DNA of 62,364 bases, counting the filler. It is 11 parts of 11 records of this genome, joined end to end, with 100 filler letters (N's around TTAATTAATTAA, not from the genome) between each part and the next. Parts side by side here need not be neighbours in the genome. Positions count along the whole stretch, not along the records: positions 8,659 to 19,495 come from SRR7504441_8099; 10 more parts are not named here. The stretch is one strand, 5' to 3'. This document shows positions 3,511 through 56,875 of the stretch, in pieces. The notes beneath the pieces were generated by a model. The model had not been told where the DNA came from. It saw only the letters and a program-made list of their open reading frames with translations, and did no database searches. The position numbers were made by a program, and so were the translations under genes. Positions within the stretch are counted from its first letter, which is position 1, and every line of letters starts with the position of its first letter.

Positions 3511-3610
3511 NNNNNNNNNNNNNNNNNNNNNNNNNNNNNNNNNNNNNNNNNNNNTTAATTAATTAANNNNNNNNNNNNNNNNNNNNNNNNNNNNNNNNNN
3601 NNNNNNNNNN
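3511..3610. other. Artificial contig spacer
   Basis: 44 N + TTAATTAATTAA (stops in all six frames) + 44 N. Confidence 0.98.
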
Positions 3611-8558: not shown

Positions 8559-8658
8559 NNNNNNNNNNNNNNNNNNNNNNNNNNNNNNNNNNNNNNNNNN
8601 NNTTAATTAATTAANNNNNNNNNNNNNNNNNNNNNNNNNNNNNNNNNNNNNNNNNNNN
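8559..8658. other. Artificial contig spacer
   Basis: 44 N + TTAATTAATTAA + 44 N. Confidence 0.98.
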
Positions 8659-9084
8659 CCCCCCCCCTAGCGGCCCGGCGCCTGTGTCTTAGTGTCCTGG
8701 AGCGACTCCTGTGCGAACTTGGCGTTGTCCACGTTGAACTGCTGATTCATCGACTGCACGTATTGATTCTCTAGCCTGCGCCTGCCGCTCAGCTCCGCCG
8801 CTCCGGGGGCGCACATCTTCTTCTGGCGCATCAGGGTCATGGCGCGCGACTTGAGCATCGGGTTGTTTGGGTTCTTCTTCAACTGGCCCCACCGTGTCGG
8901 CAGGGCGCTGGCCCGGGCAGAGCGCCTGGGCCCGCAGGGGGATGAGCTGTGAGTCAATCTTCTTGATCTTGGCCTCCATACCGTCCACCCGAGCCCCGAT
9001 CCGGGAGGAGGCCTCGTTCAGCGACGGTGGCGGCGGCGCCTCCGCATCAGGCTCGTTCTTACCCCAGCCGAAAAGCCGGCGCAT
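8659..9084 (-). CDS. CHMP5: ESCRT-III Snf7-family protein Vps60/CHMP5, 5' part (truncated by spacer)
   Basis: Spliced product MRRLFGWGKNEPDAEAPPPPSLNEASSRIGARVDGMEAKIKKIDSQLIPLRAQ|LKKNPNNPMLKSRAMTLMRQKKM|LENQYVQSMNQQFNVDNAKFAQESLQDTKTQ matches the CHMP5 N-terminus; one GC-AG and one GT-AG intron. Confidence 0.85.
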
Positions 9085-9205
9085 GCTGGGTGGCTTCTCT
9101 GCGGTGCAGTGCTTGGTTCCCGCCTGGTTGCCGTTCCAGGAAGCGAAGAGAAAACTGTTTCTCGATGCTGGGCTGAACGGCGATTTCTGGGCAGGCGCAC
9201 TGGAA

Positions 9206-9683
9206 ATGGATTCGGCTGCGCCAGACCAGCGGGGTGGGGCGAAGGTGGGGCAGGGTAGTGAAAGGGCAGGTTTCATCCGGTTCAATAAACCGGCTGCTAT
9301 CAGTTCGTCGCTCGCCTCGTACATCTTGTCCGCTGCATCAAGGACGGGAAAGCACATGACGGCTGAAGATTTCTTAAACTACCTGAACAATGACATCATT
9401 CCGCGATACTTCAATCCGGAGGACGCCTACACGATGAAGGAGCTGAAGAAGATAGCTGCTGAGTTTGATGTGCCAACGCTAGGGCCGGGCTACCAGGTTA
9501 GGGCTAGACTGCTCTGCTCTGGCTCGCCCGGACATACGGGCCCACCTACGCCCGCTATGTCAACCTCATGGCGCGAAAATACAACCTGGTGCGCCCGGCG
9601 AACAGGTCAGCCGTCGACGACACCAAGCCGGCCCGCGACTGGCCAGCCGGGCTGGCCGGCTGGCGGGCCAAAGGCCGGGGTAA
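9206..9683 (+). CDS. Small hypothetical protein, ~3 introns
   Basis: GT-AG introns of 36-41 nt join MDSAAPDQRG|FIRFNKPAAISS...KKIAAEFD|TALLWLARTYGPTYARYVNLMARKYNLVRPAN...*; no family recognised. Confidence 0.4.
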
Positions 9684-9706
9684 AATCGGCAACAACAACT
9701 GCGAGA

Positions 9707-10955
9707 ATGGTACCCGAGCCTACGGGCTGGCAGCGAGAGCGAGCGAGCGGGGCAGGAGGACCAGCGGTTCGACCAAATGCTGCTGGGGATGGCCCAGGCC
9801 TGCGGCGGGATTGACAGCATCCTGCACAACTTCATGGCCTTCTTGGCCCGGCGGACCGACTTCTTCCACATCCAGGACGAGAGCAACCCGCATACCGGCT
9901 TCCCGGCTGGGATGGCCCAGAAGATGCTGCTCAAGCATTTTAAGCACTTCGAGGCGCTGTCCAACGCCGCCCGCCAGCAATCGCAGGTCTTCGCACGCCC
10001 CAGGGGGCCACCCGGGAGCCCGGGCCAGGAGCAGGCCAAGGCCGCGGCGGCAGAGGAGGAGGAGCCGAAGCCCCCACCCGAAGACATCACCGACCTGCCC
10101 GAGGAGCCTGCGGCGCCTGAGCCGGAGCCGGCGGCCGTGCAGGCATTTTGAGCGAAGGCAGGCGAGGCGGTGACAGTGTGTGGACAGGGGGAGGCGGCAG
10201 CGAATAGCAGCAGCGCGTACAACGGGAGTGTGACTGACAAGTACACCTGGTCGCAGACGCTGTATGAGGCCACTGTGGAGGTGGACTGGCCGGCTGGCTG
10301 ACGGCTGAGCAGTGGCAGGTGCCGGTACCGGCAGGTACTGCAGGCAAGCAGGTGAGTGTGGTGTTTGGGAAGACAAAGCTCGAAATGGGGCTCAAGGGGC
10401 AGCCGCCGATCATCCAGGGTGCGCTGGGCGGGGCGGTGGTTCTGGACGAGTGCACCTGGATCAAGGAGGGCAACACGGTCCAGGTGGGCGGCTGCTGGCG
10501 CTCCGGCCTGAGTGCTGGCTGCAGCTCACGCTAGTTAAGGAGATCGAGACCTGGTGGAAGAGCGTTGTGGAGGGCGACCCCGAGATCGACACCACCAAGG
10601 CCGGGGGGCGCCAAAGGCCGGACTGACCGGCAGTTGCAGGTGGATTCTGTCCGGCGGATATCGGAGTACGATGAGGAGACCCAGGCCGGAATACAGAAGG
10701 CAAGCCGGGGTTCGGTGCCGGTCCGACTGTTGGGCAGGTAATGTTCGACCAGGACCAGAAGCGCAAGGGGCTGCCCACCAGCGATGAGATGCAGCAGGAG
10801 GAGCTGCTCCGCAAGGCGTGGGATGCCAAGGGTGAGCTAGACTGCGGTGTGGCCTGCAATGGTGGGCAGGCTCGCCGTTCGCAGGGCAACCGTTCGATCC
10901 GAGCGTGCTTAACATGTCTGGCGGAATGCCTGCAGGGTTCATACCACCAAAATGA
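9707..10955 (+). CDS. NUDC: NudC-family co-chaperone (NudC N domain + CS/p23 domain), ~8 introns
   Basis: Spliced M|EDQRFDQMLLGMAQACGGIDSILHNFMAFLARRTDFF ... YNGSVTDKYTWSQTLYE ... ECTW ... TWWKSVVEGDPEIDTTK|V ... MFDQDQKRKGLPTSDE ... AWDAKG|SPF. Could be a NudCD3-like paralogue. Confidence 0.88.
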
Positions 10956-11123
10956 TCGGCCTATTCTCTGCTAATAACGACCAGCACGGTACACACTAGT
11001 GTGCAGTAAGTGCACAATGCACGCCGAATTCACCCAAGCACCAGTCGTGCGGTCTATCTGTGGCCACATCTACATAGTTCCATCGCTATATTTGCTAATT
11101 ATTCCAAAATGTAGAATACTATA

Positions 11124-11682
11124 TCATCCAGTCGAACCGTCCACCCCATTGTACGCGCCATCGCCCCGGAGTGCGAAGGCGCCCAGGCCCTTCCCAGGCC
11201 TTCCCCTGCTACAGCACGTACGCCCCACCGGGCGGATTGCCAGCCGCGGCCTGCCTGAACTTCTCCAGCATGGACGCCCGGAAGTTGTCTTTACGTTGCA
11301 GCTGATCGGCGCTGCTCGTGGGCGGCCCGTCCACGCGCTGCCCAGCCCACTTTTTAAATCGCTGATGGCCTGGGTTTTACCTTTAGGCTCAGCATTTCGC
11401 GCTGGGCTAGATCTCGCTCGGCCTCGGCCTCGGCCAGCTGCCCCCGCCATGCCCGCTGGCCCGGCCCACTGTGCACCTCCTCCCTGAGCCGTCGGTTCTC
11501 ACCTGCCCTGCTGTCGGTCGCCGGCAGACACAGGGCCACGCACCGGCGAGCTTCTTGTTCTTCTCGGTCATTTGAACCAGCTTCTGCGCCCCGCGGTGGG
11601 CTGTGAGCCGGCTGGCCGGCGCCTGTTGAGCCTCGAACAGGTCCTGGTTGATGCTCTTGATGATCTCGGCGCTGTCCGCCAT
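11124..11682 (-). CDS. Small coiled-coil hypothetical protein, 5 introns
   Basis: MADSAEIIKSINQDLFEAQQ|KLVQMTEKNKKLA|GENRRLREE|LAEAEAERDLAQREMLSLK|RVDG... joined by 39-46 nt GT/GC-AG introns. Confidence 0.6.
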
Positions 11683-11774
11683 CGCCTTCCGGGCGCACAA
11701 CCGCGCAATGTGACCGCCTGACCGGCGGCCTCGAAAACTGAACGACAGATCTGCACTGCAGTGCTCTCTCTCAC

Positions 11775-13198
11775 ATGGGTTGCACCCTAGCCACGGAGGT
11801 CTGGAGACCCCGCCGGCCGCCAGCCAGCCGTCGGCGGGCAGGACGGGGAGTCCACCGATCCGCTCGACAACTCGTACGACGCGGCGGCCGGCGGAGTGCG
11901 GGCGAGCAAGTACCCGTGCGAGCCTGACTGGGACTGGAGCGACTGGGGCTGCACCCGCCCGGACTTCGTGCAGGCCTGGCAGCGGGCCGACGTGCCCGAG
12001 ATGGTCCGGATCGCCACCGGGGACCACTCGGACCAAGCGCGCATCCCGCCGGACGGGGCCGGTGCCGCCTGGGCCGGCTGCCTGCGAGGCCAGTGCCAGA
12101 GTGCTGCCGGGATGCGCTAGAGGCGCTGGTGGAGAACGCGCTCTCCAACGGTAATCTGGAGGTGCGCCCGGCCGGGGCCGGGGCTCACACGGGTCCAGTT
12201 CCAGCAGCTGCTCGGCCGACCGCCCAAGGAAGTAGATCCAAAGGAGGACCTGGCGTGCCGGATGGTCCAGGCGCTCATGCAGGCAGGCGTCTCACCCGAC
12301 ATCCAGAACGTGCCCCCGAGCCTGCTCCGGATGCGTGAGGCTGGGAGTGCAGGACGACACTGGTCAGACAGCGCTCATGCGGCTGTGTGGAACGCCAATC
12401 GGCTCTCGGCACGCTGCGGAGGTATGTGCATGGCTCGAGGGCCCAGGCGAGCCAATACAGATCATTGGGACTCGGCTCCGACTGGCGCGGCTGTTGCTGC
12501 AGCTCGGCGCTAAAGTCAACAAGACTGACGACGTGAGTGTATCCGTGGGGGGGCGCGAGCAGGCTAGCAGGAGGGCCACACTGCGCTGCACCACCTGTGC
12601 AGCACCAGGAGCACGCCGTGCCCGGGCAAGAGCTACGCGGCGGTGGAGGAGCCGTTGCTGCGGGCGCTGGTGGAGAGCGGGTCCGAGCCGGACTGGCAGA
12701 GCAAGCAGGTGGGGCCTGGCTGGGCGAATTGAGCGAGAGGCAGCATGGGATCACCCCACTCATGTACGCGGTGAGCGTGGACAACGGAACTCAGGACAAG
12801 CATCAGTTGGATAGGGTGCGATGCCTGATTGCGTGCGGCGCGAGCGTCAACCAATCAGCCAAGCCGGCCGCGGTGCCCTGGCAGCTGCTCAGCCGGCTAA
12901 GTGAGGGCAGGGCGGATGCTCTCCACTGATCCTGGCGGCGCTTCAGCGCAAGTGCGGCCGGGATCTGGAGGACCAAGACGACCCTTTCAAGCGAGTCAAA
13001 GCACACGCCGAGCCCGAGTTGGTGGCCGAGCTAGTGCGGGCCGGTGCGGCGGTCGAGGAGACAGCCGCGGTCAAGATCGGCAGCTTCGAGACGAGCTTCC
13101 CTTGGCCGAGGGACATTGAGGATCCCGCTGTGGTGGAGATGCTTGGGCTGCCTGCCGAGGACAAAGCTCGGCTGTGGGGCAAGTACCACGGCGAGTAG
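11775..13198 (+). CDS. Ankyrin-repeat protein with MGC N-terminal acylation motif, multi-intron
   Basis: Starts MGCTLATE; ankyrin-like segments GVSPDIQ/DDTGQTALMRLC, LLLQLGAKVNKTD, HGITPLMYAV, CLIACGASVNQ. Confidence 0.75.
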
Positions 13199-13462
13199 CC
13201 ATTGAAGCTCGTCACGAGACTGCTCAAGCCTAACATTATATCGCGATATCGCCTGTAGGCTACACTTGTAAATGCACTGATTCATGAATCTAGAGACTTC
13301 AATCGTAGGTACAACATTCAAAAATCGATCGGCTACTCAACGTACATGTACGTACTTACTCGTAGTACATACTGTACATATGATGTGGAGGGAGAATTCC
13401 GTTAGATCTCGCGGGCTCTCCGTCTCTCATCACTGGATTGCTGGAACTGACTGGGCGGGGAG

Positions 13463-16400
13463 ATGGAGCAGCCGCCCGTGGGCGATCCGCCGGAGCGGAA
13501 CAGGGCCCAGAGGCAGGCCATTATGAAACGGAACGAGCCAGTGCCCTGGCGGGCTCGACTCAGGGCAAAACCGCACGGGGATGGCTGCGCCAGATTGGAA
13601 TACAAGGCAGGGGAGCATCCATATGAGCGGCAAGTGCAAGCGACCGACAGCCTCGCCTGGCAGCCCGCTGGCCCGCACCCGGGCGGAGAGCCTCAGCGGC
13701 GTTGGGTGGACTCCGCGGAGAACGTGGCGGCGATGATTGACCAACTGCGGGAGGCGGATCAACTGGCCCTGGATCTCGAGTTTGACTCCTCCAGCGCGCT
13801 CACCCGCGGGAGCTACCTCGGCCGCACTTGCTTGATGCAGATTGGGACTGTTCAGCAAGTGTTCCTTGTGGATACGCTGGCCGAAGGGGTGGCGGACGCG
13901 CTCGAGGATCTGAACAGTGTGACGACCGACCCCAAGATCCTCAAAGTCACCCGAGCGGCGGGGGCCGGGCGACTGGCGGCAGGTTGTGCACGGGAACGAC
14001 GACTATCCGTTCCTGCAGCGCGACTTTAATGTGTTTGTGGTAAACAATTTCGATACGCAGGCTGCAGGTGACTGGTGGCCGTAATCTTGGGCTGTGAGTG
14101 GTCAGTGCAGCTTGCGAGGTCGGCGAAGTCTTGAACCTGGCTGGACTGTCTGAGAAGCTGATGGGTATCAAGCTAGACAAGAGTCTCACCACAGAGGCCG
14201 CTGCCAGCGCCTGCAATAGTGCTGAGCCGGTGGCAGGACTGGACCCAGAGACCGCTCCCTCCTAAAATGCTAGACTATGCCTACCACGATGTGGCACACT
14301 TGCTACAAATAAAGGACAAGCTACGAGACCTCCTCCTAGAGGTAGCTGAGCAGAAGAGTTCGAGTGGCAAACTGACGGAGACCCGGACCAAGCATCAGTT
14401 CTTTGTGTCTCGGTGTCATAATATTGCACTGAAAGTCTACAAAGATTTCAAAAAGGAGCCACTCCCAAGCCCGCCCTGGACCCTGAGCAATCCGCCCTGG
14501 GGCGCCGCTAACTTTGGCGACAAGAGCTTCGTGAACGCATGGAAGCAATTGAAGAAACTCCCCACTGCGCCCCCACTTGAAACTCTGGCAGAGCTCTACT
14601 TGCACCGCGACAAGTACGCCCGAGTTCTGGACTGGCATGGACAGCGGGTTATGAAAGACTGGACGCTAATCAAGATAGCCCAGAGTGCGGGCGACCTCGA
14701 TGCTGCACTCAAAGCCTTCAAACAGCAAGCGCCGTCAATTGATCTGGCTAGCGTCGAGGCACCTGAGCAAAATGCCACGGTTGATCCCTCGATCGACTCC
14801 CCCTCAGCTGCCCCGGGCGAAGGAAATTGCCTGCCTCGCGCCGAGACACCTAAGCAGGATCCTGCCATCGATGCGCCAAGGGAATCATCTCCAGCTGCTC
14901 CAGCTAAAGGCAATAAAACACAAATGTCTGAGCTCAAGCGGACTCAAGTCCCTCACGAGCAGGCCGTGAACACTACTGTGGAAGACAGGAATAGCAACAA
15001 GAAAGTGGCTGAAGAGATGGGACAGTGGGAATGTTTCTGCCCCACAGAGAACTGCAAGCAGAGGCTTCTAAACGCCGAGCAGACAGAGGACATCTGTCTT
15101 ATAGAGAGCTCTTCTAATTGGGAACTCACAACCACCACTGAATTTAGTCAAGATGGCAATCACGGCTTAGCGTCCAAGCAGAAACAGAAACAGAAGAAGA
15201 AGAAGACGCTTGGGATCGTATGCCGTAGCTGTGGAGTCGATGTAGGCGTGTCAGAGCCAGGTCGTAGTGGGCACTTCACTCCGATCTTCAAGTGTGGCAA
15301 GACCAAGCCATCCCAGCACGTCCGCTTCAAGAGACCAAATGGTGACGGTGATGATGGCATGAAGGCAAAAGAATGGAAAGAGAAATACGAAGTCGAGCTG
15401 AAGCGGCGCGGTGCTGGCCGGTTACGAAAGAGACACAAGGCTGCGGCTGCGTTCCAGCCACACACAGTGATGGTGCGGGTGGACTTGCCTCTAAACGCTC
15501 CTTGTCCTGGTGAGACTTTGCCACAGCTTGGTATGGATGAATGGTTCAGTAGGTCACGGACTACAGAACGGAGCTGGCTTGGTCTTGCCCACTGCACTGA
15601 CAGTGACAGGTACGGCATAGTACAGCGGGAGCTAGGTAAGACAGAACCACGGGTGCGGCGGTCATCGCAGTGCTGTTATTGGCGTGTATATGCTATCTCG
15701 ATTGATGGCGTGCCATTGGTATTGTTGGTCCCAGGCTCAAGTTACATTTATGAGCCCCATGGACTGTTGCCACGAGGTGTTATGGAGGAAGATGAACAGT
15801 TTCGTAAATTGCAACCTCGCATATACGCCTTCATGGACACGATATTCAAGCTGCGAGGGTTTTTAATGCCCTCCGACGACAAGAGATGGCAAAAGCGAGC
15901 GATATTGCTACCGTGCAGTGAGCCGTTCTCTGCGTCACTCTGGTATGAAGATCAAACAAAATACCTTTGGAGTGGAAAACTTTTGGAAAAATTGGTTGAG
16001 TATTGCGAGGGCCTGTGGGATAGAGATGCTTCAGCCGAACCCTATGGGCGTATCGTTCAGTCCATATACAAGGATCGATACATACATATGTGCATGAGGG
16101 AGGACATGACACCAGAAAGCACCTTTTCAAAATCTGATAGTCAAGATAACTTATCTGATAATCAAGATATAAGTTATCTTGATTATCACAACCAGAAATT
16201 GAAAGATAAAGGGCTGTCAGCAGTTGTGACAGATTCTAAGCAGCCGATGTGGCAAGTATCTGGGCCAGTCAAGCGATATCACACTGACACTGGCACGTTT
16301 TTGATACCTTCAATCACTATGGTGCTCAAAATGCGGACCGAGGTGGTGGATGCAATCCATTCGGCCGTATCCAAAGTTTTAGCTGCAGGCATTAGCACCC

Positions 16401-17819
16401 TCTCTGTGGCGCTCACTCCAAATGGTGAAAAATATCTAATGTCTCAAAAGCGGTCGGAGTGGAAACTTGGTCTCAAAAACCTTCGAAAAGATCTGCCAGT
16501 TTTGGAGCGAATAGAGGCCGCCAAGCTCCAAGAAGCGCTCTCGTTTACATCTTACAGGGAAGAAGCGTATCACAACTACGATAGACTTGAGTTTCTCGGG
16601 GATAAGGTTACCTGTCCTCAAACTTCTCTTGGATGAGGTGTGTGATACAGGTACTCGAGGTTGTGGCACGTGCGTATGTCCTGCACGCAAAGCCGGCAAG
16701 CTTGATTCATGAGAAATGCAACAATATAATCACGGGACACCAGCAACTTGTCTTACCTAAAGACAATGCAGGGAGTTGTTGGATCTGCAGTCGCAAGCGC
16801 AAATCACTAGTCTCTAACAAAGATGACGACAGTAAGTTGCTACGGGCCTCCAAAAAGCATCGTTTGTATGAAGTCTACACATGGAATGGGACTCATACCG
16901 AACATTGCAAGGCATGTAAAACGGATTTGTTCGTCGACTAATTTTCATTAGGTGAAGTTTAAACCCAAATCATCAGAGCCGAACCCGAAGGCACCCTCCT
17001 AGTTGTTGGCCACGATCCAAAGCTACTGGCAGGTCCACGCAGATCTACTCGAGGCTATCATAGGTGCTGCATTCATGTCTGGTAGTAGTCGGCTCGAGGG
17101 CTGGTCTCTTGCTGTGGAACTTTGCCAGGCTTTATTTCAGATGGACGACGGTACTATCTAGACCGATGCATAGCCATTAAGGACATTGCCATAGGCGAGA
17201 GATGGGCGGCGCTTCGGCAGCAGATCTGTCGTGGTAGTGATGAAGGCGGCACCCCGGATCTTGGCACATGCTTCACTGATTGGTGCAGCCACCTTGAGGC
17301 GCAGGTCTTACCCCTATTCTTTGCAATCAAACGACCTGATGAGCCACACAGGGCGAAGAAGAGCGCGTCATGCAGATCGAGCAGCGTAACTTTTTGGGAG
17401 ATTCCATCATAGCTTTAGCGACAGCATTACAGGCACTGCCATCCGGCTGCTGTGTACTTACAGCTCAGCAGGTTTTTGAGAACAGCGAGTGCAGAGATGC
17501 CAAGGCCATGCACGAGGCGCACATCCGCATTGCATGTCGTACCCACGTCTTACAGTGGGTGCCACACTCGGGCTGGTGCTCTAAAGCTGGGTGGTGCAGG
17601 TGTTGCGATGCCGTCAAAGTGGATGACTGGATAGAAGCGAGTTCGTTAGGTCAGATGGAGGACCTGCGGGACCCGCACATTGAGGCAATCGAAAGCTTGA
17701 GGTGTGCTGTGGTTCGAGGAACCCTGGCACACATTCTAGTTGAGCAGGACTCGGGAGGGATTGCTCTAGCTTTGCAGAACACACGACAATTTCTCTCCTC
17801 GCAGCCTGATGTTGCATGA
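13463..17819 (+). CDS. Dicer-like protein with unusual architecture: Rrp6-type DEDDy exonuclease + HRDC + RIG-I-like C-terminal Zn domain + PAZ + RNase IIIa + RNase IIIb; no helicase or dsRBD seen
   Basis: Exonuclease motifs HPYE, LALDLEF, TCLMQIGT, K|VVHGNDDYPFLQRDF, FDTQ, DWTQRPL..YAYHD. HRDC-like LYLHRDKYARVLD..VMKDWTLIKIA. CPTENC...CRSCGVDVG. PAZ-like TPESTF..ISYLDYHNQK..DSKQPM..FLIPS. RNase IIIa NYDRLEFLGDK|VL..SLVSN..K|VHADLLEAIIGA; RNase IIIb EQRNFLGDSII. Inferred introns 13946-13982, 14068-14110, 14197-14236, 16607-16650, 16912-16951, 16991-17032, 17151-17194, 17305-17351, plus likely in-frame ones. Confidence 0.88.
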
Positions 17820-18172
17820 GCTTGAAAGGGTTCCAATGAACTTACTCGCATTTGAAAGTTTCAGCAAGGAAAAGTAATAGTAAGGAAAATCAATAGACTG
17901 ATTGCTTATACGTGTGTAGCACGCATGCAAAGCACTGAAGAAGTGATGCGTCGAGTACTCGAAGTACTTAGTTGTCTACAGGTAATATTACAATAGACTG
18001 CATGCGCAAGAGATACAAGTATGATTGTAGGCCCCAGCTTGAGCTAGGATCTACTGATCCTGATCACAGTTCACTGAAAGTGTCGTTGAGCACCGTGAAC
18101 CTGGGTGCATGAGGCCTGCTGCTGGCGGGCACTGTGCGCTACCGCCTGGGAGGTAGCGCCGCGGGTGCAGAG

Positions 18173-18906
18173 ATGCCACCATGGGCCACATTGCACCTCA
18201 GCGTGGACTGGGCCGCCAGCCAGCCCAAGCGGTCGGGCGGGTGCCTGTTTGGCTGCTCCGGCGCGGACGCAGCAGTCTACGAGGTGAAAGTCACGCTCGG
18301 CGCGCACTGCTGGACGCTCAAGAAGCGGCTGTCCGAGTTCCAGACACTGGAGTCCAAACTGCACGCCGCGCTGCTCGCTAAGGTCCACCTCCTGCTCCTG
18401 GCCGGTCAGCGGGAGCACAGGTGGATCCAGCCGAGGCCGAGCAGCTGCGGGGCGGCATGCCCGTGCTGCCACCCAGCCGCCCGTTCTGGCGCGGGGAGCG
18501 GACGGCTGAGGAGCAGCGCCAGGCGGCAGCGAGCCTGCAAAAGTACTTATCCGATGTGATCGGAATGGAGCGTCGGGCTGTGTTGCCCATGTTTCATGAC
18601 CCTCTGTCGGTGTTCCTCAACATCGAGCATGAGGTAGCAGTCAACGGCGCGGGGTTATCCCCGGAGCGCACACGACACGAGACCGCCCAGCTTGTTATCG
18701 AGAAGGAGGCGTACCAGCAGCTGTCTCATGAGCTCGAGCGGCAACGGGCAGAAAGCAGTTTTGAGGAGGCCAGGAACAAGGCTCAACTACTAGCGCAATT
18801 AGAAATGCTACAGGGCGAGGTTGATGCAGCGCAGGACCACATCAACACTGTCATCTCTGAGGCCAGCCCAGCAGCTCCGCCACACGGCAAGCCGACTGTA
18901 CCCTAA
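18173..18906 (+). CDS. PX (phox homology) domain protein with C-terminal coiled coil
   Basis: VYEVKVTLGAHCWTLKKRLSEFQTLESKL|..MPVLPPSRPF..EEQRQAAASLQKYL..VFL; intron 18383-18420. Confidence 0.75.
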
Positions 18907-19378
18907 TTGCTCAGTACCGTATTGGGTGGAGCTGGTGGTTCTTGGACGTGCACATGGATATGTATTTTTAATGTATTGTTAATGTCCTCACTGTGTATAC
19001 ACTTTGAATGATTGCTCACTATGTATACCTAAAGTAACTTAAAAGGTACAGTCTACAATTTCTTATTAAAGCAGGCATGCGGTCCTAAGGAGCCCCAGCC
19101 GCCCCAAATCACAAATGCAGACACGATACAATCATGATTGTACTAATAGATCTTGCAATTGCATATTGTCGTACATGTAAGACTTAGTAACATTACCAGT
19201 AGATCTCCCGTTCGAGCGGATATTAACAACACGGAGCCAGATCCTACCTAAATCCTAGGCATGTAGGTGCCATGCTCGTAGAATAGTCTAGGGCCTGGCA
19301 GCCTCGGGTCACGATGCAGGCCGTATTGCGGAGCCGGAGCCGTAACGAACGATTGCGGCTGCCACAACTCAGGTGAGA

Positions 19379-19495
19379 TCACTTTGTCGGGCTGTGCACC
19401 TGTTGCATGGCATCTGGTATGCCGTCGAAGTTTCGATCCACGCCACTGACAAGATAGTCGGGCCTGCCGTCACCATCCACGTCCACAGCCACAGT
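19379..19495 (-). CDS. C-terminal fragment of a protein with DxDxDG Ca2+-binding-type repeats (5' part lost at spacer)
   Basis: Reads TVAVDVDGDGRPDYLVSGVDRNFDGIPDAMQQVHSPTK*. Confidence 0.55.
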   Translation of the reverse strand, partial: TVAVDVDGDGRPDYLVSGVDRNFDGIPDAMQQVHSPTK

Positions 19496-19595
19496 NNNNN
19501 NNNNNNNNNNNNNNNNNNNNNNNNNNNNNNNNNNNNNNNTTAATTAATTAANNNNNNNNNNNNNNNNNNNNNNNNNNNNNNNNNNNNNNNNNNNN
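19496..19595. other. Artificial contig spacer
   Basis: 44 N + TTAATTAATTAA + 44 N. Confidence 0.98.
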
Positions 19596-24114: not shown

Positions 24115-24214
24115 NNNNNNNNNNNNNNNNNNNNNNNNNNNNNNNNNNNNNNNNNNNNTTAATTAATTAANNNNNNNNNNNNNNNNNNNNNNNNNNNNNN
24201 NNNNNNNNNNNNNN
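24115..24214. other. Artificial contig spacer
   Basis: 44 N + TTAATTAATTAA + 44 N. Confidence 0.98.
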
Positions 24215-27376: not shown

Positions 27377-27476
27377 NNNNNNNNNNNNNNNNNNNNNNNN
27401 NNNNNNNNNNNNNNNNNNNNTTAATTAATTAANNNNNNNNNNNNNNNNNNNNNNNNNNNNNNNNNNNNNNNNNNNN
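27377..27476. other. Artificial contig spacer
   Basis: 44 N + TTAATTAATTAA + 44 N. Confidence 0.98.
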
Positions 27477-33635: not shown

Positions 33636-33735
33636 NNNNNNNNNNNNNNNNNNNNNNNNNNNNNNNNNNNNNNNNNNNNTTAATTAATTAANNNNNNNNN
33701 NNNNNNNNNNNNNNNNNNNNNNNNNNNNNNNNNNN
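33636..33735. other. Artificial contig spacer
   Basis: 44 N + TTAATTAATTAA + 44 N. Confidence 0.98.
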
Positions 33736-41878: not shown

Positions 41879-41978
41879 NNNNNNNNNNNNNNNNNNNNNN
41901 NNNNNNNNNNNNNNNNNNNNNNTTAATTAATTAANNNNNNNNNNNNNNNNNNNNNNNNNNNNNNNNNNNNNNNNNNNN
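41879..41978. other. Artificial contig spacer
   Basis: 44 N + TTAATTAATTAA + 44 N. Confidence 0.98.
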
Positions 41979-45033: not shown

Positions 45034-45133
45034 NNNNNNNNNNNNNNNNNNNNNNNNNNNNNNNNNNNNNNNNNNNNTTAATTAATTAANNNNNNNNNNN
45101 NNNNNNNNNNNNNNNNNNNNNNNNNNNNNNNNN
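45034..45133. other. Artificial contig spacer
   Basis: 44 N + TTAATTAATTAA + 44 N. Confidence 0.98.
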
Positions 45134-51757: not shown

Positions 51758-51857
51758 NNNNNNNNNNNNNNNNNNNNNNNNNNNNNNNNNNNNNNNNNNN
51801 NTTAATTAATTAANNNNNNNNNNNNNNNNNNNNNNNNNNNNNNNNNNNNNNNNNNNN
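51758..51857. other. Artificial contig spacer
   Basis: 44 N + TTAATTAATTAA + 44 N. Confidence 0.98.
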
Positions 51858-56775: not shown

Positions 56776-56875
56776 NNNNNNNNNNNNNNNNNNNNNNNNN
56801 NNNNNNNNNNNNNNNNNNNTTAATTAATTAANNNNNNNNNNNNNNNNNNNNNNNNNNNNNNNNNNNNNNNNNNNN
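56776..56875. other. Artificial contig spacer
   Basis: 44 N + TTAATTAATTAA + 44 N. Confidence 0.98.

What the first reader, a model, noticed from the sequence alone, without database searches (positions are those of the whole stretch)
15026..15335. RIG-I/MDA5-type C-terminal regulatory domain inside a protist Dicer, detached from any helicase
Seen: WECFCPTENCKQRLLNAEQTEDICLIE...KKKKTLGIVCRSCGVDVGV..FTPIFK. From memory this parallels the RLR CTD pattern (C..C, D+.+IE, basic stretch, I.C..C..D.G, P..K). A Lys run (KQKQKQKKKK) lies just before the second Cys pair, where RIG-I has 5'-triphosphate-binding lysines. Established: RLR CTDs bind dsRNA ends and are normally C-terminal to a helicase, mainly in animals. 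Inference: this Dicer may select 5'-triphosphate RNA (viral or RdRP products), which would bear on the origin of RLRs.
Basis: partly seen in the sequence, partly recalled or inferred. Interest (0 to 1): 0.8.

Follow-up and report, generated by a model that had tools for sequence, protein, structure and literature searches.

The report
Zinc beta-tent domain inside exonuclease-Dicer fusion
A marine microbe's Dicer-like gene, which lacks the usual helicase and carries an exonuclease instead, contains a small zinc-binding domain whose predicted fold best resembles the RNA-end sensor of RIG-I-type receptors, though membership of that family is not shown.

Summary
The segment is real and coding. It lies in an 819-codon open frame (14177-16636, + strand) of a multi-exon gene. 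The gene reads: RRP6-type DEDDy 3'-5' exonuclease, HRDC-like part, this Cys segment, PAZ-like part, RNase III. No helicase was found.

Only three relatives were found among 1.84 billion representatives. Six Cys, two loop Lys and a K-x-W motif are invariant in the four. The Lys run itself is not conserved.

Two template-free AlphaFold models (pLDDT 66 and 76) give Foldseek hits in one fold only, the zinc beta-tent (RLR CTD, MsrB, cereblon CULT, Yippee/Mis18). RLR-type CTDs (DRH-3, MDA5, LGP2, RIG-I) rank first in both and cover more of the domain. Margins are thin: E is never below 1.9e-3 and TM is 0.41-0.47.

Pfam is a tie below threshold: RIG-I_C-RD in 2 of 4 members, Yippee-Mis18 in 2 of 4.

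Verdict: a beta-tent zinc domain is well supported. "RLR-type" is the best but unproven reading, and 5'-triphosphate selection is untested speculation. The whole architecture looks new in four literature searches. Interest is moderate to high.

The parts
13463..13945 (+). First coding exon (start codon is a candidate only). It holds the N-terminal half of a DEDDy 3'-5' exonuclease domain with the D-x-E motif.
   Evidence: Pfam DNA_pol_A_exo1 E 1e-09, 38.9 bits, above the cut-off of 23.6, for ORF 13451-14029. tblastn of the RRP6-like P0008 hits 13544-13948. The GT donor at 13946 was read from the frames.
13983..14067 (+). Exonuclease exon 2 (Exo II region). The exon structure between 14040 and 14220 is not resolved.
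   Evidence: Pfam DNA_pol_A_exo1 E 0.25. tblastn of P0008 hits 14001-14066. 12 alternative two-intron GT-AG models fit.
14220..16606 (+). Large exon (start approximate). It holds the exonuclease Y-x3-D tail, an HRDC-like part, the Cys domain, a PAZ-like part and the first RNase III signature.
   Evidence: Open frame 14177-16636. Homology to P0003 over residues 233-811. The profile of A3 against PDB gives EXOSC10 at E 2.1e-05.
14585..14689 (+). HRDC-like segment.
   Evidence: Pfam HRDC E 0.12 here and E 0.018 in P0003, both below the cut-off. The EXOSC10 HRDC structure 2cpr scores E 0.1 with the A3 profile.
15026..15436 (+). The beta-tent zinc domain (the finding, extended at its 3' side to include the A-K-E-W-K motif and a predicted helix).
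   Evidence: Alignment A1. Pfam RIG-I_C-RD E 0.0039. AlphaFold models. Foldseek against PDB.
15032..15055 (+). First Cys cluster C-x-C-P-x3-C. The last two Cys are the likely first zinc knuckle. Loop length varies among relatives (C-P-K-C in P0004).
   Evidence: Invariant C11, C13, P14 and C18 in A1. It lies between the first two strands in both models.
15176..15205 (+). Lys run KQKQKQKKKK in the loop before the second Cys pair. The DNA is low-complexity and AAG/CAG-rich.
   Evidence: Only two Lys columns are invariant among the 4 sequences. Many unrelated metagenome contigs match just 15176-15206. pLDDT is below 50 at model residues 62-65.
15221..15232 (+). Second zinc knuckle, C-R-S-C, followed by the invariant D-V-G.
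   Evidence: Invariant C74, C77, D80, V81 and G82 in A1. It forms a hairpin between strands in both models.
15281..15292 (+). P-I-F-K strand with invariant Pro and a conserved basic last residue (K/R in 4 of 4).
15365..15379 (+). A-K-E-W-K, a K-x-W motif at the start of a predicted C-terminal helix. It resembles the RLR 'KWK motif' but is not identical to it.
   Evidence: A and K are invariant in 4 of 4. W is present in both sequences that extend that far. Helix in the models. The KWK motif is described in PMC8464030.
16013..16309 (+). PAZ-like segment.
   Evidence: Pfam PAZ E 0.0027 here and E 0.0021 in P0003, both below the cut-off. PAZ domains of PIWIL1 score E 0.0012-0.015 with the A3 profile.
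16526..16606 (+). RNase III signature (…RLEFLGDK) at the end of the exon.
   Evidence: Pfam Ribonucleas_3_3 E 0.0046 here and E 0.0011 in P0003, both below the cut-off. DCL3 structure 7vg2 scores E 0.11.
16607..16650 (+). 44-base GT-AG intron.
   Evidence: Frames read. The junction GDK|VLEVV matches the uninterrupted transcript protein P0003.
17003..17161 (+). ORF piece carrying the second catalytic motif of RNase IIIa (D-L-L-E-A-I-I-G-A). Identified by motif only.
   Evidence: Translation. No Pfam or PDB hit for the piece alone.
17343..17819 (+). Probable last exon, RNase IIIb-like. Its signature reads N-F-L-G-D rather than E-F-L-G-D. Identified by motif only.
   Evidence: Translation. No Pfam or PDB hit.

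Best explanation
The segment is a zinc-binding beta-tent domain of about 115-135 residues. Two Cys knuckles hold one zinc at the tip of two beta-sheets. It is built into a helicase-less Dicer-like enzyme whose N-terminus is an RRP6-type DEDDy 3'-5' exonuclease with an HRDC-like part.

Among the beta-tent families it is closest in predicted shape and extent to the C-terminal domains of RIG-I-like and Dicer-related helicases.

I infer that it is an RNA-binding module. It would hold the end or backbone of a double-stranded RNA substrate, next to the PAZ and RNase III parts, through a conserved basic face. That face comprises the loop before the second Cys pair, the P-x-x-K strand and the K-x-W motif. 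In this role it would do part of the job that the helicase region does in canonical Dicers.

Status of each step:
- Shown: the conservation, the Cys pattern, the predicted fold class and the gene architecture.
- Inferred: zinc binding, RNA binding, and any preference for a particular RNA end.
For: Coding and conservation:
- The segment is coding and conserved. Three relatives were found among 1.84 billion representatives.
- In all 4 sequences six Cys, D-V-G, P, F-K and A-K are invariant.

Fold:
- Pfam RIG-I_C-RD is the only family reported for the window's segment at E<=10.
- The AlphaFold models have pLDDT 66.3 and 76.3 and pTM 0.63 and 0.66.
- First model: 36 of 44 listed Foldseek PDB rows are RLR/DRH CTDs. 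DRH-3 CTD takes ranks 1-3 (E 1.9e-3, 130-135 aligned columns of 145).
- Second model: 19 of 41 rows are RLR/DRH, including ranks 1-3. Their TMq is 0.41-0.47 and rmsd 4.1-5.6.
- In the same list, 20 cereblon CULT rows have TMq 0.31-0.36 and MsrB1 has 0.38.
- Every listed PDB row in both searches is a beta-tent protein. The viral library gives only noise.

Topology against the published RLR CTD description (PMC8464030, passages):
- The two Cys knuckles sit in the first and in a later beta-hairpin.
- A basic loop lies between the preceding strand and the second knuckle.
- A K-W type motif and, as in DRH-3, a long C-terminal helix follow.

Charge and context:
- The domain is basic in all 4 sequences (pI 8.7-9.1). 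Nine columns have K/R in at least 3 of 4.
- Context: exonuclease; PAZ-like and RNase III hits at matching places in two orthologs.
Against: - No match reaches a curated or conventional threshold. RIG-I_C-RD scores 17.8 bits against a cut-off of 25.6.
- Foldseek has 0 hits at E<=0.001, and TM-scores are below 0.5 when normalised by the query.
- Yippee-Mis18 matches 2 of 4 members (best E 0.0019). It is the only hit for P0003. P0007 matches neither family.
- The A1 profile finds nothing in PDB sequences at E<=10. Single sequences find nothing relevant either.
- MsrB1, CULT, YPEL5 and Mis18 structures lie within a factor of about 2-3 in E-value of the best RLR hits. Some have higher target-normalised TM (MsrB1 0.58, Mis18a 0.60).
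- Lupas et al. [quoted passage not shown] Weak hits to RIG-I_C-RD are therefore expected for any beta-tent domain.
- The language-model search gave only weak leads: IBR at 0.80, and a mixed RIG-I/Yippee cluster at 0.76.
- The alignment has only 4 sequences and the models are of moderate confidence. I could not see coordinates, so the zinc geometry and the basic face were not inspected.
Confidence: 0.5

Rival explanations
1. It is a beta-tent domain of its own family, no closer to RLR CTDs than to Yippee, Mis18 or CULT. Its role would not be RNA-end binding. It could, for example, drive oligomerisation or partner recruitment (as Mis18 Yippee-like domains do), or bind a small ligand or a modified residue in the fold's cradle.
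For: - Pfam Yippee-Mis18 matches 2 of 4 members, with best E 0.0019. That is slightly better than the best RIG-I_C-RD E of 0.0039.
- MsrB1, CULT, YPEL5 and Mis18 lie among the top Foldseek hits.
- The five families are described as roughly equidistant (PMC4287342).
- Two extra invariant Cys (C-x-C at the start, and C-L) set this family apart.
Against: - RLR/DRH CTDs rank first in both Foldseek lists. They cover more columns at lower rmsd in the better model.
- The domain continues past the 100-residue core with a further strand, K-x-W and a helix, as RLR/DRH-3 CTDs do.
- All 4 domains are basic.
- The host protein is an RNA-processing enzyme.
Confidence: 0.3
2. It is a true RLR-type CTD that reads 5'-triphosphate or 5'-diphosphate ends, so that this Dicer prefers viral or RdRP-made dsRNA.
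For: - All the evidence for the RLR-like reading applies.
- Two Lys columns are invariant in the loop that binds 5'-ppp in RIG-I (K858-K861) and DRH-3 (K988-K993), according to PMC8464030.
- A conserved K/R ends the P-x-x-K strand.
Against: - No residue-level superposition could be made.
- The Lys run itself is not conserved and is modelled with low confidence.
- MDA5, which also has this fold, binds dsRNA stems rather than 5'-ppp ends. The fold therefore does not predict end chemistry.
- The PAZ part of a Dicer already reads an end.
- No experiment exists.
Confidence: 0.13
3. It is only a structural zinc linker between the exonuclease-HRDC and PAZ parts, and the Lys run is a nuclear localisation signal.
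For: - The KKKK run fits a classical monopartite signal (a rule recalled from memory, not tested).
- The run lies in a loop of low model confidence.
Against: - The run is absent from all 3 relatives. They keep the domain with only scattered basic residues in that loop.
- 28 invariant columns across sequences 33-43% identical to the window's argue for more than a spacer.
Confidence: 0.07

Closest known systems
C-terminal (regulatory/repressor) domains of RIG-I, MDA5, LGP2 and C. elegans DRH-3 (Pfam RIG-I_C-RD, PF11648)
   Same: - Two Cys knuckles about 55 residues apart, in the first and a later beta-hairpin.
- A basic loop before the second knuckle.
- A P-x-x-K strand.
- A K-W type motif and, as in DRH-3, a long C-terminal helix.
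- These are the top Foldseek hits for both models.
   Different: - The domain is not attached to a DExD/H helicase or pincer. It lies in the middle of a Dicer-like protein, after an exonuclease-HRDC part.
- Its Pfam score is below the cut-off.
- The first knuckle is C-P-x1-3-x-C with an extra C-x-C, and there is one further invariant Cys.
- The motif is K-[ED]-W-[KA], not KWK.
- The source is a non-animal organism, whereas PMC4287342 calls the RIG-I domain detectable only in animals.
Other beta-tent zinc domains: Yippee/YPEL, Mis18, cereblon CULT, MsrB
   Same: The same fold and zinc site. Pfam Yippee-Mis18 gives weak hits in 2 of 4 members. MsrB1, CULT, YPEL5 and Mis18 structures are among the Foldseek hits.
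   Different: - This domain is longer than the roughly 100-residue core.
- In the better model those structures have lower query-normalised TM (0.31-0.38, against 0.41-0.47 for RLR CTDs).
- No MsrB catalytic motif or three-Trp cage was evident by eye in the alignment. This was not tested formally.
Helicase-less Dicers of protists (Giardia type: PAZ plus two RNase III domains)
   Same: PAZ-like and RNase III parts without a helicase or a detected dsRBD. The Giardia architecture is as stated in PMC4839659.
   Different: - It carries an N-terminal DEDDy exonuclease, an HRDC-like part and the beta-tent domain.
- The second RNase III domain is seen by motif only, and its signature reads N-F-L-G-D.
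RRP6/EXOSC10-type DEDDy exonuclease with HRDC. The RNAi-linked relatives Mut-7, Nibbler and WEX are recalled from memory, not from a call.
   Same: The exonuclease domain passes the Pfam cut-off. EXOSC10 and RRP6 are the best PDB sequence matches. D-x-E and Y-x3-D motifs are present.
   Different: Here the exonuclease is fused in one reading frame with a Dicer-like C-terminal half.

Membership tests
RLR C-terminal domain (Pfam RIG-I_C-RD, PF11648) | The Pfam gathering score (25.6 bits) is reached. | tested here: not met
   The window's domain scores 17.8 bits (E 0.0039). P0004 scores 12.3 bits. P0003 and P0007 have no hit. So 2 of 4 members match at E<=10.
RLR C-terminal domain (Pfam RIG-I_C-RD, PF11648) | A C4 zinc site formed by the beta1-2 and beta6-7 hairpins (PMC8464030). 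| tested here: met
   The two Cys pairs are invariant in 4 of 4 sequences. They lie in the first and a later hairpin of both models. This holds at sequence and model level only. Metal binding itself cannot be tested here.
RLR C-terminal domain (Pfam RIG-I_C-RD, PF11648) | Structural similarity to solved RLR CTDs that clearly exceeds similarity to other folds and families. | tested here: inconclusive
   RLR/DRH CTDs are the top hits in both searches. However, E is 1.9e-3 at best and TMq is 0.41-0.47. MsrB1, CULT and Mis18 fall in the same E range.
RLR C-terminal domain (Pfam RIG-I_C-RD, PF11648) | A basic RNA-end-binding loop before the second Cys pair, and the KWK motif. | tested here: inconclusive
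   Two Lys columns are invariant in the loop, and K-[ED]-W-[KA] stands in place of KWK. The placement rests on topology, not on a residue-level superposition.
RLR C-terminal domain (Pfam RIG-I_C-RD, PF11648) | Position directly C-terminal to a DExD/H helicase with a pincer. | tested here: not met
   No helicase lies in the gene or in the 4.6 kb upstream on the same contig. Within animals, helicase-less and duplicated CTDs are reported (PMC8662601).
Beta-tent fold (zinc-bearing branch) | Two Cys knuckles at the tips of two beta-sheets, with structural neighbours that all belong to the fold. | tested here: met
   All 44 listed rows and all 41 are RLR CTD, MsrB, CULT, YPEL5 or Mis18 structures. 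The control library gives noise.
Yippee/Mis18 (Pfam PF03226) | The Pfam gathering score (26.6 bits) is reached. | tested here: not met
   The best hit is E 0.0019 (P0004's domain). P0003's domain scores 12.9 bits. So 2 of 4 members match.
Yippee/Mis18 (Pfam PF03226) | The predicted aromatic cage (Y43, F45, W82, Y84 of fly yippee, PMC4287342). | not testable with these tools
   No residue-level alignment to a Yippee sequence or structure could be obtained.
Dicer (class 3 RNase III) | Two RNase III domains in one chain. | tested here: inconclusive
   The first signature is found with Pfam E 0.0046 here and E 0.0011 in P0003, both below the cut-off. The second domain is seen by motif only, with no Pfam or PDB hit.
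Dicer (class 3 RNase III) | A PAZ domain upstream of the RNase III domains. | tested here: inconclusive
   Pfam PAZ scores E 0.0027 here and E 0.0021 in P0003, both below the cut-off. PIWIL1 PAZ scores E 0.0012 with the two-sequence profile.
DEDDy 3'-5' exonuclease (Pfam DNA_pol_A_exo1) | The Pfam gathering score is reached, and D-x-E and Y-x3-D motifs are present. | tested here: met
   38.9 bits against a cut-off of 23.6. The motifs were read.

The most novel reading that the evidence does not exclude
The RNA-end-sensing domain of the RIG-I-like receptors is older than animals. It first worked inside Dicer-type enzymes of protists, here joined to a 3'-5' exonuclease, as the module that picks 5'-tri/diphosphate dsRNA ends (viral or RdRP products) for dicing and trimming. 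Animals would later have joined it to a Dicer-related helicase.
Probability: 0.12. Interest if true: 0.85.

Novelty: new variant of a known kind. Interest (0 to 1): 0.55.

Why it matters
Dicers and RIG-I-like receptors share a helicase ancestry, but the RNA-end-sensing CTD has been treated as an animal invention tied to the helicase. A CTD-like zinc domain inside a helicase-less, exonuclease-fused Dicer of marine protists would give two things:

- A new way of building a small-RNA-producing enzyme, with end recognition, dicing and 3' trimming in one chain.
- A concrete, testable candidate for a pre-animal relative of the RLR sensor domain.

Even if it proves to be a separate beta-tent family, it adds a member from a poorly sampled part of the eukaryotic tree. 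The authors of the beta-tent paper said such a find could clarify the fold's history (PMC4287342).

Tried and rejected
Searches for more relatives, all blank:
- Word-indexed protein searches: the region search found none. The A1 profile in 'longer' mode found only P0003, and in 'near' mode only P0004 and P0007.
- Two metagenome scans, one viral scan and one prokaryote-genome scan found no relative.
- The window holds no second copy of the domain.

PDB sequence searches found nothing for the domain: the segment, P0004, P0007 and the A1 profile.

Protein atlas: only weak leads below the tool's own 0.9 bar. They were IBR at 0.80, and a cluster auto-named 'C-terminal domain of RIG-I' with 13% Yippee-Mis18 at 0.76.

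Other resources:
- No whole genome is held for this window.
- Earlier-findings look-ups returned nothing.
- Sequencing runs: no RNA holder is listed. The four runs laid were contigs from marine or aquatic metagenomes. They showed near-identical short DNA pieces and no joints, so they say nothing about expression or splicing.

Exon structure between 14040 and 14220 could not be fixed. 12 two-intron and 12 one-intron GT-AG models keep the frame.

The idea that the Lys run is the key feature was rejected because it is not conserved.

Literature: four searches found no report of a RIG-I-type CTD in a Dicer, or of an exonuclease-Dicer fusion. The library is partial and supplements were closed, so this is not proof of absence.
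Full report
**What is there**

The quoted peptide is encoded at 15026-15335 on the + strand. It lies inside an 819-codon open frame, 14177-16636.

The window is not one piece of DNA. Ten spacers of the form N44-TTAATTAATTAA-N44 join separate contigs. The contig that holds the finding is 8659-19495. Only that stretch is valid context.

**The gene**

- ORF 13451-14029 carries a DEDDy 3'-5' exonuclease domain (Pfam DNA_pol_A_exo1, E 1e-09, 38.9 bits, above the cut-off).
- The large frame continues that domain. EXOSC10 and RRP6 are its best PDB sequence matches.
- It then gives weak, sub-threshold Pfam hits in order: HRDC, RIG-I_C-RD, PAZ and RNase III.
- The ortholog P0003 gives HRDC, PAZ and RNase III hits at the matching places.
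- A two-sequence profile hits PIWIL1 PAZ domains (E 0.0012) and a plant DCL3 RNase III region (E 0.11).
- The junction GDK|VLEVV across a 44-base GT-AG intron (16607-16650) is confirmed by the uninterrupted P0003 transcript protein.
- Downstream ORF pieces carry the second RNase IIIa motif and an RNase IIIb-like part. These are seen by motif only, with no Pfam or PDB hit.
- No helicase was found. Upstream + strand ORFs gave only an ankyrin hit.

'Helicase-less Dicer-like protein fused to an RRP6-type exonuclease' is therefore a reasonable reading. The Dicer half rests on weak but mutually consistent hits.

**Relatives**

A full HMMER pass over 1.84 billion representatives found 6 proteins at E<=0.001. 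Three of them cover the segment:
- P0003, 747 aa, labelled by its source as a Telonema subtile transcriptome protein, 33% identical.
- P0004 and P0007, two fragments from ENA assemblies.

All further searches added nothing.

In the four-sequence alignment these are invariant:
- W-x-C-x-C-P-x(1-3)-x-C, and C-L.
- H-G.
- Two Lys columns in the following loop.
- C-x-x-C-x-x-D-V-G.
- The Pro of P-x-x-[KR].
- V-x-F-K, and A-K.

The two sequences that extend further share A-K-[ED]-W.

The run KQKQKQKKKK is peculiar to the window. Its DNA is a low-complexity AAG/CAG tract that attracts unrelated metagenome contigs.

**Fold**

- AlphaFold2 without templates gave pLDDT 66.3 and pTM 0.63 for the window's domain. 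It gave pLDDT 76.3 and pTM 0.66 for P0003's domain.
- Both models have the two Cys knuckles in beta-hairpins, a loop before the second knuckle, further strands, and a long C-terminal helix that starts at A-K-x-W.
- Foldseek against PDB returned only beta-tent proteins.
- First model: 36 of 44 listed rows are RLR/DRH CTDs. DRH-3 CTD takes ranks 1-3 (E 1.9e-3, TMq 0.39-0.47). The other 8 rows are MsrB1, cereblon CULT, YPEL5 and Mis18.
- Second model: of 41 listed rows, 19 are RLR/DRH (including ranks 1-3), 20 are CULT, 1 is MsrB1 and 1 is Mis18.
- In that second list RLR/DRH rows have TMq 0.41-0.47 and rmsd 4.1-5.6. CULT rows have TMq 0.31-0.36, MsrB1 0.38, and Mis18 0.42 at rmsd 8.4.
- These row counts partly reflect how many entries each family has in PDB.
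- No hit has E<=0.001.
- The viral library served as a control. It gave only noise (best E 0.11, probability no higher than 0.28).

**Sequence-family tests**

- For the window's domain, RIG-I_C-RD is the only Pfam family listed (E 0.0039, 17.8 bits, cut-off 25.6).
- For P0003's domain, only Yippee-Mis18 is listed (E 0.12).
- P0004 hits both: Yippee-Mis18 at E 0.0019 on the domain, RIG-I_C-RD at 12.3 bits.
- P0007 hits neither.
- The A1 profile finds no PDB sequence at E<=10.

This is a tie. It is also what Lupas et al. describe for this superfamily. [quoted passage not shown] They also state that the RIG-I domain is detectable only in animals (PMC4287342, passages read).

**Comparison with published RLR CTD features**

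From PMC8464030 (passages read):
- A C4 zinc site is made by the beta1-2 and beta6-7 hairpins.
- A 5'-ppp-binding loop lies between beta5 and beta6 (RIG-I K858-K861; DRH-3 K988-K993).
- There is a conserved KWK motif that contacts the backbone.
- A continuous basic surface is present.
- In DRH-3 there is a long C-terminal helix.

The family here matches these in topology:
- Knuckles in the first and a later hairpin.
- Two invariant Lys in the loop before the second knuckle.
- K-[ED]-W-[KA], followed by a long helix.
- pI of 8.7-9.1 in all four domains, with nine columns holding K/R in at least 3 of 4.

This is a match of order and position, not a residue-level superposition, which I could not make. 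My recollection that a lysine in the RIG-I strand corresponding to P-x-x-K also binds the triphosphate comes from memory, not from a call.

**Mechanism proposed**

Shown:
- A conserved, basic, Cys-pair domain predicted to be a beta-tent.
- Its position between an exonuclease-HRDC part and PAZ-RNase III parts.

Inferred:
- It binds zinc.
- It holds a dsRNA end or backbone through the basic loop, the P-x-x-K strand and K-x-W. This would help place substrates for the RNase III centres and perhaps hand 3' ends to the exonuclease.
- It thereby stands in for the missing helicase region.

Whether it distinguishes 5'-ppp from other ends is open. MDA5 shows that the same fold can bind stems instead of ends.

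**Comparison and novelty**

- Within animals, CTDs without a helicase, duplicated CTDs and reversed orders have been reported (PMC8662601, passages read).
- I found no report of such a domain in a Dicer, or of an exonuclease-Dicer fusion, in four searches. The library is partial and supplements were closed.
- Helicase-less Dicers are known (Giardia, diatoms; PMC4839659, passages read).
- I file the domain as a member of the beta-tent fold, not as a member of Pfam RIG-I_C-RD. 'RLR-CTD-like' describes what it most resembles.

**Probabilities**

| Claim | Probability |
|---|---|
| Beta-tent zinc domain | about 0.85 |
| Closest to RLR CTDs | about 0.5 |
| RNA-binding role | about 0.5 |
| 5'-ppp selectivity with bearing on RLR origin | about 0.12 |

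Noticed in passing
window 3511-3610, 8559-8658, 19496-19595, 24115-24214, 27377-27476, 33636-33735, 41879-41978, 45034-45133, 51758-51857, 56776-56875: Ten identical spacers (44 N, TTAATTAATTAA, 44 N) show that the window is a chain of separate contigs, probably a binned assembly. Gene neighbourhood is meaningful only within 8659-19495.
   Followed up: yes
window 13946-13982 and 16607-16650: The two introns that could be fixed are very short (37 and 44 bases, GT-AG). The second is confirmed by the P0003 transcript protein. This may help place the organism.
   Followed up: partly
window 17343-17819: The RNase IIIb-like part has N-F-L-G-D where the first domain has E-F-L-G-D. Its second acidic motif is irregular. 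One of the two cleavage centres may be impaired (by eye only).
   Followed up: no
proteins P0007, P0004, P0010 (ENA assemblies): P0007 (HRDC end plus one copy of the domain) lies on one 3571-base contig together with P0010, a fragment of the P0004 cluster. P0004 begins with a tail like the one that follows the domain in the window, then carries a full copy. That organism seems to have two copies of the domain in tandem, each followed by an intron after A-K.
   Followed up: partly
window 15292-15375: One 529-base contig of run X3 matches only these 84 bases, with one other letter and a 3-base insertion behind 15317. It is unlike the window on both sides. It may be a paralog's or a relative's exon for the conserved K-x-G-K…V-R-F-K-R part.
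   Followed up: no
window 12236-13198: The upstream neighbour on the + strand looks like an ankyrin-repeat gene (Pfam Ank E 0.00063 for 12537-12929, just below the cut-off).
   Followed up: partly
window 18113-18906: The downstream + strand ORFs have no convincing family (only INT_SG_DDX_CT_C at E 0.0097, below the cut-off). Whether they belong to the Dicer-like gene or to the next gene is not known.
   Followed up: no
window 13400-17900: Short contigs 97-100% identical to parts of the gene occur in several marine, seawater and aquatic metagenome runs from different studies. The organism or close strains therefore recur in the sea.
   Followed up: partly
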